From Candidatus Magasanikbacteria bacterium RIFCSPLOWO2_12_FULL_43_12 (lineage in GTDB: Bacteria > Patescibacteriota > Patescibacteriia > Magasanikbacterales > UBA922), in the NCBI GenBank assembly GCA_001783065.1, contig MFQN01000003.1, forward strand, positions 15,314 through 79,313: 64,000 bases of DNA. Reading direction: 5' to 3'. The position numbers and the translations under genes were made by a program. Position 1 is the first letter of the stretch, and the number at the start of each line of letters is the position of its first letter. The notes under the pieces are model-generated. The model searched no databases. It worked only from the letters and a program-made list of their open reading frames with translations, and was not told the origin of the DNA. Of this stretch, positions 1 through 18,495 are shown one piece after another.

Positions 1-327
1 CAAAACATAAATCAAATCCACTTTCGTCTTTCCAAGAGAAAATTTATTCATGTTCGCTCGAAAGAGTCTTGTTTTAATTTCTTTTTCTTTGGCGCGCGCT
101 TCTACAAAGTTCAACATCTCTCTGTTCAAATCCAATCCATAATATTTATAGCCGCGTTTATGCCATTCTTCCAAGTAAGGACTGTTTCCGGAAGCTAATT
201 CAAAAATTTTTCTAACTTTGACTTTAGAAAATTTCTTTATTGCTTTTTCAAAAAAATCAACCTCGTTTGATATATTCCTAAAACTGAAAGCGATTTCGTA
301 ATACTTGGGATTTTTATAAAGATACAT
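1..327 (-). CDS. class I SAM-dependent methyltransferase, N-terminal part (gene continues past the left window edge)
   Basis: Reverse-strand translation from ATG (complement of 325-327) reads MYLYKNPKYYEIAFSFRNISNEVDFFEKAIKKFSKVKVRKIFELASGNSPYLEEWHKRGYKYYGLDLN... with an E-L-A-S-G-N stretch resembling methyltransferase motif I. Open to position 1; absent from the ORF track because it is incomplete. Confidence 0.5.
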   Translation of the reverse strand, partial: MYLYKNPKYYEIAFSFRNISNEVDFFEKAIKKFSKVKVRKIFELASGNSPYLEEWHKRGYKYYGLDLNREMLNFVEARAKEKEIKTRLFRANMNKFSLGKTKVDLIYVL

Positions 328-330
328 AAG

Positions 331-430
331 TGGGCGATAATGGAGTCGAACCATCGACCCGCCTGCATTGACTTGCTGTCAAAGCATGTCGGGCAGGCCT
401 CGTCATTACCGCGCCCGACTTCGCCTTGAC
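331..430 (-). ncRNA. atypical ~95-100 nt tRNA-like element (T-arm ATGG-TTCGACT-CCAT, then 3' acceptor-like TATCGCCC; long internal hairpins); identity unresolved
   Basis: Minus strand reads ...GGTCGATGGTTCGACTCCATTATCGCCCAC, a canonical T-loop followed by an acceptor 3' strand. No convincing 5' acceptor or D-arm could be folded by eye. It lies directly 3' of tRNA-Ile in the same array. Confidence 0.3.
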
Positions 431-624: not shown

Positions 625-629
625 CCTTG

Positions 630-704
630 TGGGTCTGAGCCGACTTGAACGGCTGGCCTCTTCGATGTCAACGAAGCGCTCTAACCAAACTGAGCTACAG
701 ACCC
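630..704 (-). tRNA. tRNA-Val (anticodon GAC), CCA not encoded
   Basis: Minus strand GGGTCTG TA GCTC AGTTTGGTTA GAGC G CTTCG TTGACAT CGAAG AGGCC AGCCG TTCAAGT CGGCT CAGACCC A; 75 nt, all stems pair. Confidence 0.85.
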
Positions 705-8742: not shown

Positions 8743-8790
8743 ATTTTTGAAATTAAAATAGCTTGCAGGGCGTAATGAAATGAAGCCCTG

Positions 8791-8862
8791 TGCACCCGCG
8801 AAGAATCGAACTTCGATTACAAGATCCGCAATCTTGTGTCCTATCCGTTGAACGACGGGTGC
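8791..8862 (-). tRNA. tRNA-Arg (anticodon GCG as read), CCA not encoded
   Basis: Minus strand GCACCCG TC GTTC AACGGATA GGAC A CAAGA TTGCGGA TCTTG TAAT CGAAG TTCGATT CTTCG CGGGTGC A; all stems pair (one G-U in the D-stem). Confidence 0.75.
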
Positions 8863-16165: not shown

Positions 16166-16858
16166 ATGCAAAAACTTAATCTCAAAAAAATCATCTTCCT
16201 CGCCGCCTTCGCTCTCATCGGTCTCGCCGCGATGCAGGTTCCGTTCAGCCAGCTCGTCGGCGCGAAGGGCGTCCGTTTCTCGCTCTTTGACTTCTACGGC
16301 CCGATCGCCGGCGGATTTGTCGGTTCAATCTGGGGTTTGGTGACAGTCGGGATAATGCAACTGGCCAACTGGGCATGGCACGGTTTCGCAACTGACGCCG
16401 GAACGATTATCAGATTTTTCCCAATGTTGTTTGCTTTATTGTATTTTGCTAAAAAAACACGATGGATGTTGTTGGTTCCGGCAATCGCTATGATTGCTTT
16501 CTGGGCGCATCCGGAAGGGAGACAGGCGTGGTATTACGCTCTTTACTGGTTAATTCCGATTGCCGCGTATTTCTTTCATGAAAAATCGATCCTGCTCCGC
16601 GCTCTCGGTACCACTTTCACCGCTCACGCTGTCGGCGGGGCATTGTGGATTTGGATTTTCAATATGAAAGCAATATTGTGGATTGGCTTAATCCCCGTAG
16701 TCTGGAAAGAACGAGGTCTGATGGCGATCGGCATTACTCTCACTTTCATTCTCTTTAATTTTTTGATGAGCGTTATCGCGCAAAAAACAAAAATCCAGTT
16801 GCCGTTCATAAAATTAAATCCGAAATACTCGCTCCAGCAAAATAAAACAACCCTTTAA
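16166..16858 (+). CDS. polytopic integral membrane protein (possibly an ECF-transporter S-component-like protein; sits upstream of folC)
   Basis: 230 aa, at least 5 hydrophobic helices, aromatic-rich (W/F/Y). The functional guess comes only from the small multi-TM architecture and the folC neighbourhood. Confidence 0.5.
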   Translation: MQKLNLKKIIFLAAFALIGLAAMQVPFSQLVGAKGVRFSLFDFYGPIAGGFVGSIWGLVTVGIMQLANWAWHGFATDAGTIIRFFPMLFALLYFAKKTRWMLLVPAIAMIAFWAHPEGRQAWYYALYWLIPIAAYFFHEKSILLRALGTTFTAHAVGGALWIWIFNMKAILWIGLIPVVWKERGLMAIGITLTFILFNFLMSVIAQKTKIQLPFIKLNPKYSLQQNKTTL

Positions 16859-16875
16859 CAGAGTTGCTTTAGCGG

Positions 16876-16963
16876 CGGAGAGCAATGGAGTCGAACCATA
16901 TTCGTCTTGCGACGAACCGACTACTTATCAGGTAACGTTCTGCGCCGGCAGAATTTACTCTCC
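16876..16963 (-). tRNA. atypical long (88 nt) tRNA-like gene: Ser/Sec-like architecture (9-bp acceptor with G discriminator, 6-bp D-stem/4-nt loop, long variable arm, 4-bp T-stem) but an Ile-type anticodon loop CTGATAA (GAT)
   Basis: Minus strand GGAGAGTAA A TTCTGC CGGC GCAGAA CG GTTAC CTGATAA GTAGT CGG TTCGTC GCAA GACGAA T ATGG TTCGACT CCAT TTGCTCTCC G. It shares the identical 15-mer ATGGTTCGACTCCAT with the element at 331-430. Folding was done by eye. Confidence 0.45.
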
Positions 16964-17009
16964 ATGCGCACCGCCAGCGATATTTTATCATAAAACAATA
17001 AAACAAAAC

Positions 17010-17030
17010 ACCCCTTTCGGGGGTTTTGTC
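17010..17030 (+). terminator. rho-independent terminator-like hairpin CCCCTTTCGGGGG + TTTTG
   Basis: cacccctttcgggggttttgtc; GC stem with a T-run on the plus strand, downstream of the membrane-protein gene. Confidence 0.5.
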
Positions 17031-17082
17031 GATTCGCGAAAACGAATACGGTTCGCTACCTGATAAGTACTCCAAATATATC

Positions 17083-18495
17083 ATGCTGCAAGAAATTTGT
17101 CAAGTTTTTTATCCACAACAGAACATGAACTTCAACCAAGCCTACAACTATATTCTTTCTCTTAATAATCTGCCGAGAAAAGAATACATGAGCGATCCGC
17201 GCCATTGCGGATGGTATTTGTTGCGTTTGCAATTCTTTTTAAATCTGATTGGAAATCCGGAACGCAAAATCCCCCACTATATTCACGTAACCGGCACATC
17301 AGGTAAGGGATCGGTAACCGCGTATCTGCATTCAATCCTGCAAGCTTCCGGCAAAACCGTCGGCTCAACCTATTCTCCGCACCCAACGATAATCACTGAA
17401 CGTTGGAAGGTCGGGAAACATTACATGACTAAAAAAGAGTTTGCCGATATCGTGGAATATCTAAAACCAAAACTGGATGAATACATCGCCAAAACGCCTT
17501 ATGATATGCTTTCTTTTTTTGAAGTTACCGAAGCGATCGGCTTGTTATTTTTCGTCCGCAAAAAAGTCAGCTGGGCGGTGATGGAAGTTGCTTGCGGCGG
17601 CCGGACAGACTCCAGCAATATCATTCCTTGGAAAGACGCGGCGATAATCACCAATATCGGCGTGGACCACATCGGCGTGCTTGGCAGAAACAAAGCGGAA
17701 ATCGCGTATGAAAAAGCGGGAATAATTAAGCGAGGCGCGCCAGTATTCACGATGGAGAAGGATGAGAAGATGTTGGAAATCATAAGAAAAGAATGCAAAA
17801 AAAATTCAGCCAAACTTTATCTCTCACATCCTACGCCCTACGCCCTACGCCCAACGACTGACATAGGACATATGGCATATGACGTAGGTAAGATGAAATT
17901 TAGTTATCAAAACGAAAATTATTCTATCCCTTGTCTCGGCGCTCACCAAATTCGTAACGCTATTCTCTGCATTGAGATTGCCCAACATTTAGGAATCAGC
18001 CGACAGTCTATAAAAAAAGGATTAAGCCGGGTTCAACAGCCGTTGCGAATGGAAGTTGTTTCTAAAAATCCGCTAATAATTCTTGATGGAGCGCATAATC
18101 CGGATAAGATGCGGACGACGGTAGATACACTTCATCACTTCATCACTTCATCACTTCATCACAGCGACACGAGACGCAATGTCAATTTACTGGTTGGTTT
18201 TTCCGGCGACAAAAACGTGGCAAAAATGATAAAACAACTTGTTTCCCTAAAACCCAAAACAATCGCGGTGACACGCAACACTACCAACCCGTTCCGCAAA
18301 GTGGCTGACCCGCAATCCACAAGCAAACAATTCAAAAAACTTTTACCGAAAACGAAAATCAAAATTTTTCTTGATCCTAAAACCGCGTTAGCTTGGTCAA
18401 AAAAACAAACAAAAAAAGACGAAATATTGCTCGTTACCGGCTCAATATTTGTAAGCGGAGAACTCCGCCCTCAATTTAAAGTGAAAAAGAAATAA
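17083..18495 (+). CDS. folC: folylpolyglutamate synthase/dihydrofolate synthase FolC (Mur-ligase family)
   Basis: P-loop ...IHVTGTSGKGSVTAYL...; Mur-ligase middle and C-terminal regions. The ORF-track start at 17026 overlaps the terminator hairpin, so an internal ATG (17083 or 17125) is more likely. Carries two in-frame tandem-repeat insertions. Confidence 0.8.
   Translation: MLQEICQVFYPQQNMNFNQAYNYILSLNNLPRKEYMSDPRHCGWYLLRLQFFLNLIGNPERKIPHYIHVTGTSGKGSVTAYLHSILQASGKTVGSTYSPHPTIITERWKVGKHYMTKKEFADIVEYLKPKLDEYIAKTPYDMLSFFEVTEAIGLLFFVRKKVSWAVMEVACGGRTDSSNIIPWKDAAIITNIGVDHIGVLGRNKAEIAYEKAGIIKRGAPVFTMEKDEKMLEIIRKECKKNSAKLYLSHPTPYALRPTTDIGHMAYDVGKMKFSYQNENYSIPCLGAHQIRNAILCIEIAQHLGISRQSIKKGLSRVQQPLRMEVVSKNPLIILDGAHNPDKMRTTVDTLHHFITSSLHHSDTRRNVNLLVGFSGDKNVAKMIKQLVSLKPKTIAVTRNTTNPFRKVADPQSTSKQFKKLLPKTKIKIFLDPKTALAWSKKQTKKDEILLVTGSIFVSGELRPQFKVKKK
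17830..17852. repeat. tandem heptamer (CTACGCC)x3 in frame in folC
   Basis: cctacgccctacgccctacgccc, encoding ...PTPYALRPT... Confidence 0.8.
18129..18161. repeat. tandem octamer (CTTCATCA)x4 in frame in folC
   Basis: cacttcatcacttcatcacttcatcacttcatcaca, encoding ...LHHFITSSLHHS... Confidence 0.8.

What the first reader, a model, noticed from the sequence alone, without database searches (positions are those of the whole stretch)
16876..16963. Long tRNA-like gene with Ser/Sec-type architecture but an Ile-type anticodon loop (GAT); shares an identical T-arm 15-mer with the element at 331-430
Folded by eye: 9-bp acceptor GGAGAGTAA/TTGCTCTCC with G discriminator (a Ser/Sec identity feature), 6-bp D-stem with 4-nt loop (TTCTGC CGGC GCAGAA, Sec-like), and a 6-bp variable-arm hairpin (TTCGTC GCAA GACGAA). 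The anticodon stem-loop GTTAC CTGATAA GTAGT has the same CUGAUAA loop as the bona fide tRNA-Ile at 460-536. If functional it could be a mis-incorporating, serylated tRNA reading Ile codons, a novel tRNA class, or a tRNA-derived regulatory RNA. The T-arm ATGGTTCGACTCCAT is identical in the 331-430 element, suggesting a small family.
Basis: partly seen in the sequence, partly recalled or inferred. Interest (0 to 1): 0.65.

Follow-up and report, generated by a model that had tools for sequence, protein, structure and literature searches.

The report
Mis-matched tRNA with its own antisense RNA
This is a real, conserved gene for an odd-shaped "allo" tRNA that looks like a serine tRNA but carries an isoleucine anticodon. 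Right next to it sits a previously unnoticed small RNA gene built to base-pair with that tRNA and apparently keep it switched off.

Summary
Window 16876-16963 (minus strand) encodes an 88-nt tRNA with an 8-bp acceptor stem, a 4-bp T stem, a 6-bp D stem with a tetraloop, a long variable arm, discriminator G73 and the loop CUGAUAA (anticodon GAU). This is the known 8/4 "allo-tRNA" architecture (Mukai 2017), not a new tRNA class. The host is a Candidatus Magasanikbacteria (CPR) genome.

Relatives occur in many CPR lineages and other phyla, and covariation strongly supports the cloverleaf. In an anticodon-blind scan, 17 of 20 allo-type hits on low-GC contigs carry UGAUA.

The new part is an adjacent gene. 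Just upstream on the same strand is a separate unit with a TTGACA-17-TATATT promoter, a ~70-nt sRNA and a terminator. The 5' end of the sRNA is antisense to the anticodon arm, and its next segments are antisense to the variable and T arms. This partner is present in 38 of 44 CPR-type loci. The pairing is cognate-specific, keeps itself through compensatory changes, and uses G·U rather than A·C at non-Watson-Crick positions.

Among allo-type tRNAs, such a partner was found for 29 of 40 with non-serine anticodons and for 0 of 19 with Ser or Sec anticodons.

Best reading: a potentially toxic Ser-for-Ile mistranslating tRNA is held in check by a dedicated antisense RNA. Charging and decoding are inferred, not shown.

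The element at 331-430 shares the 15-mer but is not a family member.

The parts
16876..16963 (-). 8/4 allo-tRNA with anticodon GAU. G1 is at 16963, the anticodon at 16927-16929, and discriminator G73 at 16876, followed by CCG rather than CCA.
   Evidence: ARAGORN. Rfam tRNA-Sec 42.7 bits. MFE cloverleaf. Family model R1 88.8 bits. Covariation in 29 relatives: 92.9% of cells paired, score 0.706 against 0.210 for shuffles.
16969..16976 (-). Leader segment UGGCGGUG, at or near the 5' end of the primary tRNA transcript. It is complementary to the end of the 3' acceptor strand plus the discriminator and trailer (CGCCGCUA). It acts as an alternative partner for the 3' end, or a second lock.
   Evidence: In 43 loci the leader pairs 8.2 nt with the cognate 3' end against 6.8 nt with non-cognate ends (0 of 10000 permutations reach this). 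In most CPR relatives the leader is a near copy of the 5' acceptor strand (UGCGGAGGUU pairing with GGCCUCCGCR).
16982..16990 (-). Extended -10 promoter element (TGATAAAAT) for the tRNA unit. No -35 element is present.
   Evidence: Read from the sequence. TGnTAnnnT lies at this position in 32 of 37 related loci.
16843..16871 (-). Intrinsic terminator of the tRNA unit (T2).
   Evidence: Terminator scan. The same trailer and terminator occur in ortholog L099.
17075..17103 (-). Sigma-70 promoter P1 (TTGACA-17 nt-TATATT, preceded by TG) for the antisense sRNA.
   Evidence: Promoter scan, 11 of 12 matches. TTGACN-16..18-TANNNT lies in the same place in 36 of 37 related loci, with the -10 ending about 9 nt before UAUCA.
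16996..17068 (-). Antisense "anti-tRNA" sRNA, about 70 nt (ends inferred). Sequence: ACUUAUCAGGUAGCGAACCGUAUUCGUUUUCGCGAAUCGACAAAACCCCCGAAAGGGGUGUUUUGUUUU.
   Evidence: Bounded by P1 and terminator T1. No Rfam family matches. Cofolding with the tRNA gives ddG -10.3 kcal/mol, against 0.0 for shuffles and -2.2 with the canonical tRNA-Ile.
17054..17072 (-). sRNA segment 1, complementary to the whole anticodon arm of the allo-tRNA (19 nt; 18 of 19 pair when G·U is allowed). The first few bases may lie upstream of the transcription start.
   Evidence: Inverted repeat I1. Intermolecular covariation over 38 loci: score 0.450 against 0.190, with 0 of 500 shuffles reaching it. Cognate 15.2 nt against non-cognate 8.8 nt. 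G·U 27 against A·C 3.
17039..17055 (-). sRNA segment 2, complementary to the 3' strand of the variable arm plus the 5' strand of the T stem and the start of the T loop (17 of 17 with two G·U).
   Evidence: Inverted repeat I2. Found at the same relative place in most related loci. Cognate 11.5 nt against non-cognate 8.1 nt.
17028..17037 (-). sRNA segment 3, complementary to tRNA nt 43-52 (end of the anticodon stem, junction, and 5' strand of the variable arm).
   Evidence: 10-nt run in the window; a comparable third segment occurs in many relatives.
17010..17024 (-). Terminator hairpin T1 of the sRNA, followed by the U-run UUUUGUUUUAUUGUUUU. It lies immediately upstream of the tRNA promoter.
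   Evidence: Terminator scan. A T-run between the sRNA and the tRNA is present in 31 of 37 related loci.

Best explanation
SHOWN. 16876-16963 (minus strand) is a conserved gene for an (8/4) allo-tRNA with a GAU anticodon in a Candidatus Magasanikbacteria genome. It is one half of a compact two-RNA module on one strand. The order is: strong promoter, ~70-nt sRNA, terminator, extended -10 promoter, 12-nt leader, tRNA, terminator.

The 5' end of the sRNA is antisense to the anticodon loop and the 5' strand of the anticodon stem. Its following segments are antisense to the variable arm and the T stem. This complementarity is specific to the neighbouring tRNA and is maintained by compensatory substitutions.

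INFERRED. The tRNA has G73, a 6-7 bp variable arm, and an acceptor stem like the host's tRNA-Ser. It also has a 12-bp acceptor/T branch, U33, A37 and the GG/T-loop tertiary motifs. It would therefore be serylated by SerRS, accepted by EF-Tu, and read AUC/AUU as serine. That would be a proteome-wide, highly toxic substitution.

The abundantly transcribed sRNA would seed on the 7-nt anticodon loop and invade the deliberately weak anticodon stem. It would then zip through the variable and T arms. This blocks decoding and removes the SerRS identity element, and may create an RNase III substrate.

The leader is a copy of the 5' acceptor strand that can mask the 3' end, so it would act as a second lock.

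Functionally this is an RNA-only, toxin-antitoxin-like or regulated-mistranslation switch. The tRNA becomes active only when the sRNA is depleted, for example on transcription shut-off, stress or infection.
For: tRNA reality and class:
- Searches identify and fold it.
- One search shows covariation: all 6 D-stem pairs, the 8th acceptor pair and the T stem covary; 92.9% of cells are paired against 68.3% for shuffles.
- Searches give the family model and its hits.
- The definition of the class comes from PMC5389517.

Distribution:
About 95 of the hits are allo-type, from many CPR lineages, Solirubrobacterales, Acidobacteriota, Chloroflexota and Planctomycetota.
- In an anticodon-blind metagenome scan, 17 of 20 allo-type hits on low-GC contigs have a YUGAUAH loop.

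Transcription units:
-. P1 is present in 36 of 37 loci.

Antisense partner:
-. It is present in 38 of 44 CPR-type loci.
- Ortholog L099 keeps the pairing through changes on both sides. At tRNA positions 31 and 39 and in the variable arm these are full compensatory changes. In the T stem a G·U pair becomes G-C.
- Cognate against non-cognate: 15.2 against 8.8 nt, with 0 of 10000 permutations reaching this.
- The pair-count tool gives covariation 0.450 against 0.190, with 0 of 500 shuffles reaching it.
- tRNA positions 31 and 39 are mismatched inside the tRNA in 24 of 29 sequences. With the sRNA they are paired in 37 of 37 and 36 of 37.
- G·U 27 against A·C 3, p = 8e-6. This shows RNA-RNA pairing of transcripts from this strand.
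- Cofold ddG is -10.3 kcal/mol, against 0 for shuffled sRNA and -2.2 with the canonical tRNA-Ile.

Link to mistranslation:
- A partner of at least 13 nt is found for 29 of 40 allo-type tRNAs with non-Ser anticodons (GAU, GAC, GCC, GUC). It is found for 0 of 19 with Ser or Sec anticodons. Fisher p = 5e-8. The opposite-strand control gives 2 of 59.
- Allo-tRNAs with Leu anticodons insert Ser and kill E. coli (PMC5389517).
- tRNA-Ser(GAU) is lethal in yeast through Ser insertion at AUC/AUU (PMC6125640).
- A canonical tRNA-Ile(GAU) coexists in the window and in L065, so the allo-tRNA is not needed for normal decoding.

Patchy, accessory-like distribution:
- The module is absent from the syntenic site in five related Magasanikbacteria lineages. 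It is present at that site in L099.
- No conserved protein neighbour was found.
Against: - No expression, processing, aminoacylation or decoding data exist for any member.
- The 3' end is GCCG, not GCCA. However, 2 of the 5 canonical tRNAs in the window also lack an encoded CCA.
- Most CPR relatives have a mismatched 31-39 pair, effectively a 9-nt loop. This could impair decoding. Mukai et al. found that six allo-tRNA(UAU) variants were inactive in E. coli.
- The invariant UGAUA loop could reflect recognition by a protein such as IleRS or the t6A enzymes rather than codon reading.
- A tandem group of U73 allo-tRNAs in Solirubrobacterales (GAU and GAC anticodons) has no partner within 400 nt. 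So do 11 of the 40 non-Ser-anticodon allo-tRNAs in the metagenome scan, though two of those 11 are probably Ser-anticodon tRNAs by my own parse and some have truncated flanks.
- The condition that would release the tRNA is unknown.
- Both search patterns fixed GGAG...CTCC acceptor ends, so Ser-like acceptor conservation cannot be judged from these hits.
Confidence: 0.5

Rival explanations
1. A non-decoding tRNA-like RNA. The allo-tRNA is not used on the ribosome. It acts as a decoy or regulator recognised through its tRNA-Ile-like anticodon loop (for example by IleRS, t6A enzymes or an anticodon nuclease), or it serves as a sponge for the sRNA. The sRNA-tRNA pair would then be a regulatory circuit unrelated to mistranslation.
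For: UGAUA is invariant while the flanking stem is weak or mismatched, giving an effective 9-nt loop in most relatives. Some natural allo-tRNAs were translationally inactive in E. coli, and Mukai et al. proposed regulatory non-coding roles. The leader can mask the 3' end. The 3' end is not CCA.
Against: All features needed for translation are kept: the 12-bp acceptor/T branch, the GG D loop and UUCGA T loop, U33, A37, G73 and the long variable arm. Partners are found only for anticodons that would mistranslate, including GAC, GCC and GUC, and not for Ser or Sec anticodons. A tRNA-Ile-specific protein decoy would not explain that. The whole sRNA is devoted to this one tRNA.
Confidence: 0.2
2. 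A genuine but regulated isoleucine isoacceptor. IleRS charges it through the GAU anticodon and A37, so it reads AUY correctly. The sRNA merely tunes its level.
For: The anticodon loop is identical to that of the canonical tRNA-Ile. The GAU anticodon is strongly conserved in CPR.
Against: It has G73 rather than the A73 of the window's tRNA-Ile. The body is Sec/Ser-like with a long variable arm. A canonical tRNA-Ile(GAU) is already present. An elaborate neutralising antisense is hard to justify for a harmless isoacceptor. The same partner architecture occurs with GAC, GCC and GUC anticodons.
Confidence: 0.1
3. A dedicated aminoacyl donor for a non-ribosomal reaction (for example tRNA-dependent cell-wall or lipid aminoacylation, or tRNA-dependent amino-acid conversion as with tRNA-Sec). 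The anticodon would serve as a handle for the enzyme.
For: The Sec-like D arm and 8-bp acceptor recall a tRNA used for on-tRNA chemistry. Established precedent: non-proteinogenic tRNA-Gly in staphylococcal peptidoglycan synthesis (from my own knowledge).
Against: No conserved neighbouring enzyme gene was found in 44 loci. The 12-bp branch is EF-Tu compatible, unlike the 13-bp branch of tRNA-Sec. This reading does not explain the restriction of partners to mismatched anticodons.
Confidence: 0.07
4. A decaying pseudogene, a chance tRNA-like fold, or an aberrant tRNA-Sec.
For: It falls below the Rfam gathering scores. It is absent from the syntenic site in several relatives.
Against: Strong covariation in every stem. 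It has its own promoter and terminator. The locus is identical in 10 contigs. Relatives occur across phyla. The anticodon is GAU, not UCA, and the branch is 8/4, not 8/5.
Confidence: 0.02

Closest known systems
(8/4) allo-tRNAs (Mukai et al., NAR 2017, PMC5389517)
   Same: The 12-bp acceptor/T branch is split 8/4. The D stem is long with a tetraloop, the variable arm is long, and the discriminator is G73. The anticodon is a non-serine sense anticodon. It resembles the tRNA-Sec model. The published text suspects a link to toxin-antitoxin biology and mistranslation.
   Different: The published hosts were Clostridia, Proteobacteria and Acidobacteria. Here the host is CPR, and many CPR lineages plus Solirubrobacterales and others carry relatives. 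The text I could read does not mention GAU; UAU, GCG and GUC were said to predominate. The anticodon stem is short and weak rather than long. The dedicated antisense sRNA partner and the acceptor-mimicking leader are not mentioned in the papers I could read. Their supplements were not available.
Bacterial tRNA-Sec (Rfam RF01852)
   Same: 8-bp acceptor stem, 6-bp D stem with a 4-nt loop, long variable arm, and serylation-type identity. It is the best Rfam match (42.7 bits).
   Different: The T stem has 4 bp, not 5, giving a 12-bp rather than a 13-bp branch. The anticodon is GAU, not UCA. The score is below the gathering threshold. None of the 13 true tRNA-Sec genes sampled has an antisense partner.
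Type I toxin-antitoxin systems (antisense RNA antitoxin, e.g. hok/sok; from my own knowledge)
   Same: A small, strongly promoted antisense RNA is encoded next to the gene whose toxic product it neutralises. The module is compact and autonomous, and its distribution is patchy.
   Different: The target here is a tRNA, not a toxin mRNA, and no protein is encoded. The two genes are in tandem on one strand rather than overlapping. Toxicity and differential stability are untested.
Engineered mistranslating tRNA-Ser variants (yeast tS-I(GAU), PMC6125640; allo-tRNA expression in E. coli, PMC5389517)
   Same: A Ser-identity body carries a GAU or Leu anticodon. Accumulation is lethal, so such tRNAs must be kept conditional.
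   Different: Those are laboratory constructs controlled by decay pathways or inducible promoters. This is a natural gene with a natural RNA-based control.
T-box riboswitch-tRNA pairing (from my own knowledge)
   Same: An RNA reads a tRNA through base-pairing with its anticodon, and a second contact involves the acceptor end.
   Different: A T-box pairs 3 nt of anticodon plus NCCA and leaves the tRNA folded. Here 15-19 nt plus 12-17 nt duplexes must unfold the anticodon, variable and T arms. No downstream gene is regulated.

Membership tests
(8/4) allo-tRNA | [quoted passage not shown] | tested here: met
   Window: GGAGAGUA/UGCUCUCC plus AUGG/CCAU. In the family, the 8th pair is GC 17 and AU 12, and the T stem is 100% paired.
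(8/4) allo-tRNA | Sec-like D arm: a long stem with a tetraloop. | tested here: met
   UUCUGC-CGGC-GCAGAA. All 6 pairs covary and 98.9% of cells are paired.
(8/4) allo-tRNA | Long variable arm and a G73 or U73 discriminator (Ser identity set). | tested here: met
   UUCGUC-GCAA-GACGAA, with G73. The variable-arm pairs covary.
(8/4) allo-tRNA | Anticodon stem longer than in canonical tRNAs. | tested here: not met
   The window has 5 bp, two of them G·U. In 24 of 29 relatives the loop-closing pair is mismatched, leaving 3-4 bp. The paper describes this as a tendency of the group rather than as a criterion.
(8/4) allo-tRNA | [quoted passage not shown] | tested here: met
   RF01852 scores 42.7 bits against a gathering score of 47. 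The anticodon is GAU.
(8/4) allo-tRNA | Serylation by SerRS and activity on the ribosome. | not testable with these tools
   Only the identity elements can be read from the sequence. Experiments were done for other members in E. coli.
tRNA-Sec | UCA anticodon (or a recoded variant), a 13-bp branch (8/5), and SelA/SelB/SelD in the genome. | tested here: not met
   The anticodon is GAU and the branch is 8/4. The sel genes were not searched beyond this window.
Canonical bacterial tRNA-Ile(GAU) | 7/5 cloverleaf, short variable loop, A73, GAU anticodon. | tested here: not met
   Only the anticodon loop matches. The true tRNA-Ile is at 460-536, with 74.5 bits and A73.
Type I toxin-antitoxin system | The toxin is a small protein whose mRNA is bound by an antisense RNA. 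| tested here: not met
   No conserved ORF lies in the ~300-bp module, and the target is a tRNA. The resemblance is functional only.
Type I toxin-antitoxin system | An adjacent antisense RNA with extended complementarity to its target, maintained by selection. | tested here: met

The most novel reading that the evidence does not exclude
Natural missense-suppressor allo-tRNAs in several bacterial phyla are the toxic half of an RNA-only toxin-antitoxin or abortive-infection-type module. In CPR this is nearly always Ser-tRNA(GAU). A dedicated, strongly expressed sRNA unfolds the tRNA by pairing with its anticodon, variable and T arms. Loss of the sRNA would unleash proteome-wide Ile-to-Ser mistranslation.
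Probability: 0.35. Interest if true: 0.92.

Novelty: new variant of a known kind. Interest (0 to 1): 0.8.

Why it matters
The function of allo-tRNAs has been an open question since 2017. It has been unclear why genomes would keep tRNAs that should mistranslate.

This locus suggests an answer that can be tested directly. The tRNAs whose anticodon does not match their serine identity usually come with their own antisense RNA, and the harmless ones do not. If the proposed mechanism holds, several things follow:

- A tRNA would be shown acting as a controlled toxin.
- A new, protein-free kind of toxin-antitoxin or regulated-mistranslation module would be defined.
- A compact natural tool for switching a suppressor tRNA on and off would be available.
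- A conserved non-coding gene pair would be added to the very small genomes of CPR bacteria.

Even if the mechanism is wrong, two things remain. The co-evolving sRNA-tRNA pair is a new class of RNA-RNA interaction. It also shows that annotation pipelines mislabel or miss these genes.

Tried and rejected
- Syntenic loci of relatives, fetched through the neighbouring membrane protein. Only the same species and L099 carry the tRNA there, so they gave no covariation. I switched to pattern scans.
- Anticodon-free pattern GGAG-N13-GG...GGTTCGANTCC on viral contigs. It returned almost only canonical tRNA-Ser and was not allo-specific. I replaced it with a pattern fixing the CGG D loop.
- GAU pattern on viral contigs. 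There were 11 hits and none was a CPR-type module, so there is no sign that the module is phage-borne.
- Search for a conserved protein partner within 4 kb on either side in 44 loci. None was found.
- Rfam at a permissive E-value over 16800-17100. Nothing matched the sRNA.
- RNAduplex on long flanks. It was too noisy, so I replaced it with ungapped-run and permutation tests.
- The idea that the upstream copy is a DNA-level inverted duplication or an opposite-strand mimic of the anticodon arm. I rejected it for three reasons. The segment order is permuted and conserved. The promoters and terminators are on the tRNA strand. G·U outnumbers A·C by 27 to 3.
- The idea that GGAGG in the leader is a Shine-Dalgarno sequence. 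There is no consistent start codon.
- The 331-430 element as a second family member. Rejected.
- Literature searches for a prior description of the antisense partner or of allo-tRNAs in CPR. None was found. The supplement of the 2017 paper was not available.
Full report
**1. The observation**

ARAGORN reports six tRNAs in the window. One is a 90-nt "tRNA-Ile (gat)" at 16874-16963 on the minus strand. Read on that strand, the sequence is GGAGAGUA AA UUCUGC CGGC GCAGAA C GUUAC CUGAUAA GUAGU CGG UUCGUC GCAA GACGAA U AUGG UUCGACU CCAU UGCUCUCC G, followed by CCGC.

The minimum-energy fold is exactly this cloverleaf, at -32.6 kcal/mol with z = -3.4. The general Rfam tRNA model does not reach threshold here. 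The best Rfam family is tRNA-Sec, at 42.7 bits against a gathering score of 47, with local E = 1.6e-7.

The anticodon loop equals that of the canonical tRNA-Ile at 460-536. The 15-mer ATGGTTCGACTCCAT occurs at 340 and 16885 only.

**2. Host and local context**

The flanking membrane protein is found on GCA_001784235.1 (MFPZ01000037) and nine other contigs. Its homologues are named Magasanikbacteria or Patescibacteria. The 281-bp locus is identical in all ten contigs.

In five related lineages, where the neighbour protein is 68-80% identical, the same intergenic site holds no tRNA. One other Magasanikbacteria genome (L099) has it at the same site. The distribution is therefore patchy.

**3. Which kind of tRNA**

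The architecture matches the published (8/4) allo-tRNAs. These have an 8-bp acceptor stem plus a 4-bp T stem, a long D stem with a tetraloop, a long variable arm, G73 or U73, and mostly non-serine anticodons. They were found as false positives of the tRNA-Sec model (PMC5389517; review PMC7609411).

About 95 of 122 matches are allo-type. The hosts include:
- many CPR lineages (Kuenen-, Staskawicz-, Gribaldo-, Doudna-, Roizman- and Magasanikbacteria, Saccharibacteria, WWE3 and Paceibacterota);
- Solirubrobacterales, Acidobacteriota, Chloroflexota and Planctomycetota.

On an alignment of 29 CPR-type sequences, 92.9% of cells pair, against 68.3% for shuffles. The covariation score is 0.706 against 0.210. 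All six D-stem pairs covary. The eighth acceptor pair is GC 17 and AU 12, and the first T-stem pair is GC 25 and AU 4. The family is therefore 8/4, even though this one sequence could also be drawn 9/3.

The family model scores the window at 88.8 bits. It scores the window's true tRNA-Ser at 35.7 bits.

**4. Is the GAU anticodon selected?**

The first scan fixed the loop, so I ran an anticodon-blind, allo-specific pattern on the metagenome collection. Of 63 allo-type hits, 26 carry GAU and 12 are true tRNA-Sec. The rest are GAC, Ser anticodons and singletons.

On low-GC (CPR-like) contigs, 17 of 20 have a YUGAUAH loop. In CPR the family is thus essentially a GAU family, and the loop is invariant while the stems vary.

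A canonical tRNA-Ile(GAU) coexists in the window and in L065.

**5. The neighbouring gene**

Two inverted repeats link the tRNA to the sequence upstream of it. On the tRNA strand that upstream region is a transcription unit of its own. It has the promoter TTGACA-17-TATATT (11 of 12 matches), about 70 nt of RNA, a terminator hairpin and a long U-run. Then come an extended -10 element, a 12-nt leader, the tRNA and a second terminator.

The sRNA begins about 2 nt before UUAUCAGG. It has three antisense segments:
- Segment 1 is antisense to the whole anticodon arm.
- Segment 2 is antisense to the 3' strand of the variable arm plus the 5' strand of the T stem.
- Segment 3 is antisense to the 5' strand of the variable arm.

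The same layout is present in 38 of 44 CPR-type loci. Of the 37 loci checked for signals, P1 is present in 36, a T-run in 31, and the extended -10 in 32.

**6. Is the complementarity selected?**

- *Ortholog L099.* Many tRNA stem positions differ from the window, yet the pairing is kept by changes on both sides. Position 31 goes C to A while the sRNA goes G to U. Position 39 goes G to C while the sRNA goes C to G. A variable-arm A goes to U while the sRNA goes U to A. In the T stem a G·U pair becomes G-C.
- *Cognate specificity.* Across 39 loci, the longest uninterrupted pairing of each sRNA with its own tRNA averages 15.2 nt, against 8.8 nt with other loci's tRNAs. For segments 2 and 3 the figures are 11.5 and 8.1 nt. 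None of 10000 permutations reaches either value.
- *Covariation.* The pair-count tool, run on an ungapped sRNA plus anticodon-arm alignment, gives a covariation score of 0.450 against 0.190 (0 of 500 shuffles). Up to four pair types occur per position.
- *Positions 31 and 39.* These are mismatched with each other in 24 of 29 tRNAs. With the sRNA they are paired in 37 of 37 and 36 of 37. The anticodon stem looks weakened in favour of the intermolecular duplex.
- *Strand test.* Non-Watson-Crick positions are G·U 27 times and A·C 3 times, p = 8e-6. This is expected only for RNA-RNA pairing of transcripts from this strand.
- *Energetics.* Cofolding gives ddG -10.3 kcal/mol, against 0 for shuffled sRNA and -2.2 with the canonical tRNA-Ile.

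**7. Beyond CPR, and the link to mismatched identity**

In high-GC phyla the anti-anticodon-arm RNA lies downstream of the tRNA instead, at +58 to +130. It again has its own TTGACA/-10 promoter and terminator.

In the anticodon-blind set, a same-strand partner of at least 13 nt exists for 29 of 40 allo-type tRNAs with non-Ser anticodons (GAU, GAC, GCC, GUC). It exists for 0 of 19 with Ser or Sec anticodons. Fisher p = 5e-8, and the opposite-strand control gives 2 of 59. Two of the eleven "other" tRNAs without a partner are probably Ser-anticodon allo-tRNAs by my own parse, which would make the contrast slightly stronger.

There are exceptions. A tandem group of U73 allo-tRNAs in Solirubrobacterales (GAU and GAC) lacks a partner.

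**8. The leader**

The 12-nt leader carries a near copy of the 5' acceptor strand. It can pair 8-11 nt with the 3' acceptor strand plus the discriminator and 2-3 trailer bases. In the window the pairing is UGGCGGUG with CGCCGCUA, and in most CPR relatives it is UGCGGAGGUU with GGCCUCCGCR. Cognate pairing averages 8.2 nt against 6.8 nt for non-cognate, with 0 of 10000 permutations reaching this. I read this as a second, cis-acting lock on the acceptor end. That reading is inference.

**9. Mechanism**

Shown: the gene, its class, its conservation, the two transcription-unit signals, and the co-evolving antisense complementarity.

Inferred: serylation, from G73, the long variable arm, and an acceptor stem whose first 6 bp equal the window's tRNA-Ser. 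Also inferred are delivery by EF-Tu (12-bp branch) and reading of AUC/AUU as Ser.

Published experiments make the predicted toxicity credible. Allo-tRNAs with Leu anticodons insert Ser and kill E. coli. A tRNA-Ser with a GAU anticodon is lethal in yeast through Ser insertion at AUC/AUU.

The strongly promoted sRNA would seed on the anticodon loop and invade the weak stem. It would then sequester the variable arm, which is the SerRS identity element, and the T stem. The module would behave like an RNA-only toxin-antitoxin or regulated-mistranslation switch. No conserved protein neighbour exists.

I give the whole chain 0.5. The tRNA class gets about 0.9, a functional sRNA-tRNA pairing about 0.8, and mistranslating-toxin logic about 0.4.

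**10. Rivals**

- A non-decoding decoy or regulator (0.2).
- A regulated true Ile isoacceptor (0.1).
- An aminoacyl donor for a non-ribosomal reaction (0.07).
- A pseudogene, a chance fold or an aberrant tRNA-Sec (0.02).

The evidence for and against each is given in the rivals section.

**11. Novelty**

The tRNA is a member of a known class, so it is not a new tRNA class. I found no description of allo-tRNAs in CPR, of a GAU-dominated subfamily, of the antisense partner or of the leader lock. This covers the main text of the 2017 paper (which has no occurrence of "antisense", "complementary" or "GAU"), later papers and full-text searches. The 2017 supplement could not be read, so prior mention there cannot be excluded.

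**12. The 331-430 element**

It shares the T-arm 15-mer. However, the family model does not hit it, the tRNA-Sec model gives 19.6 bits, and it has no anticodon arm.

Its 3' AUCGCCC is perfectly complementary to the first bases of a 66-nt repeat (X2, 560-626). That repeat begins like a tRNA 5' part and lies on the other side of the tRNA-Ile gene. This is unexplained and is recorded separately.

Noticed in passing
window 331-430, 560-626 and 708-774 (all minus strand): The tRNA cluster reads X1 | tRNA-Val(GAC) | X2 | tRNA-Ile(GAU) | Y. X1 and X2 are 66-nt repeats, 92% identical with a 40-nt identical core. Each starts like a tRNA (acceptor 5' strand, U8 A9, D stem GCUC, D loop). A 33-nt GC hairpin is then inserted before GAGC closes the D stem. 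X2's GGGCGAU is perfectly complementary to Y's 3' AUCGCCC. Y has a T arm but no anticodon arm. This may be a split, interrupted or decayed tRNA, or a two-piece tRNA-like RNA.
   Followed up: partly
L026, L028, L032, L043, L060 (5270-5819), L091 (858-4845), L105 and others: Solirubrobacterales genomes carry tandem arrays of near-identical 8/4 allo-tRNAs with U73. Their anticodons are GAU or GAC (loops UUGAUAA, UUGACAC, CUGACAA) and the flanks are conserved (ccttatagaggt ... cacgacttgc). No antisense partner lies within 400 nt.
   Followed up: partly
L095, L107, L122, L128 (one Dehalococcoidia genome); L036, L044, L066, L081; viral L388, L389, L391, L392: These are canonical 7/5 class-II (Ser/Leu-like) tRNAs with a GAU anticodon loop. 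There are four near-identical copies in one Dehalococcoidia genome, and others on high-GC phage contigs. No anti-anticodon partner was detected.
   Followed up: no
L072, L029, L059, L098, L077 (about 90-110 nt downstream of the tRNA): The partner sRNAs of high-GC phyla share a conserved hairpin with a GGGUGGUUCCC or GGGUAGCUCCC motif after the anti-anticodon segment. It may be a protein-binding or structural module.
   Followed up: no
L374 (metagenome contig, GC 0.40): This is a CPR-type allo-tRNA body in which the anticodon arm is replaced by a short stem with a UGCC tetraloop. The upstream RNA still has 18 nt of uninterrupted complementarity to that arm.
   Followed up: no
L014 4738-6162: In a related Magasanikbacteria genome, the intergenic site that holds the tRNA module in the window is occupied by a diversity-generating-retroelement-like cassette (reverse transcriptase plus two bAvd genes).
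   Followed up: no
L051, L052, L055, L033, L103: These contigs are labelled "uncultured Gammaproteobacteria" in their records. They carry the complete CPR-type module (promoter, sRNA, leader, tRNA) and have low GC. The bin taxonomy may be wrong, or the module may have been transferred.
   Followed up: no
window 629-704 and 8790-8862: Two of the five canonical tRNA genes in the window (Val-GAC and Arg-GCG) do not encode CCA, while Ile, Val-CAC and Ser do. The genome therefore depends on a CCA-adding enzyme.
   Followed up: yes
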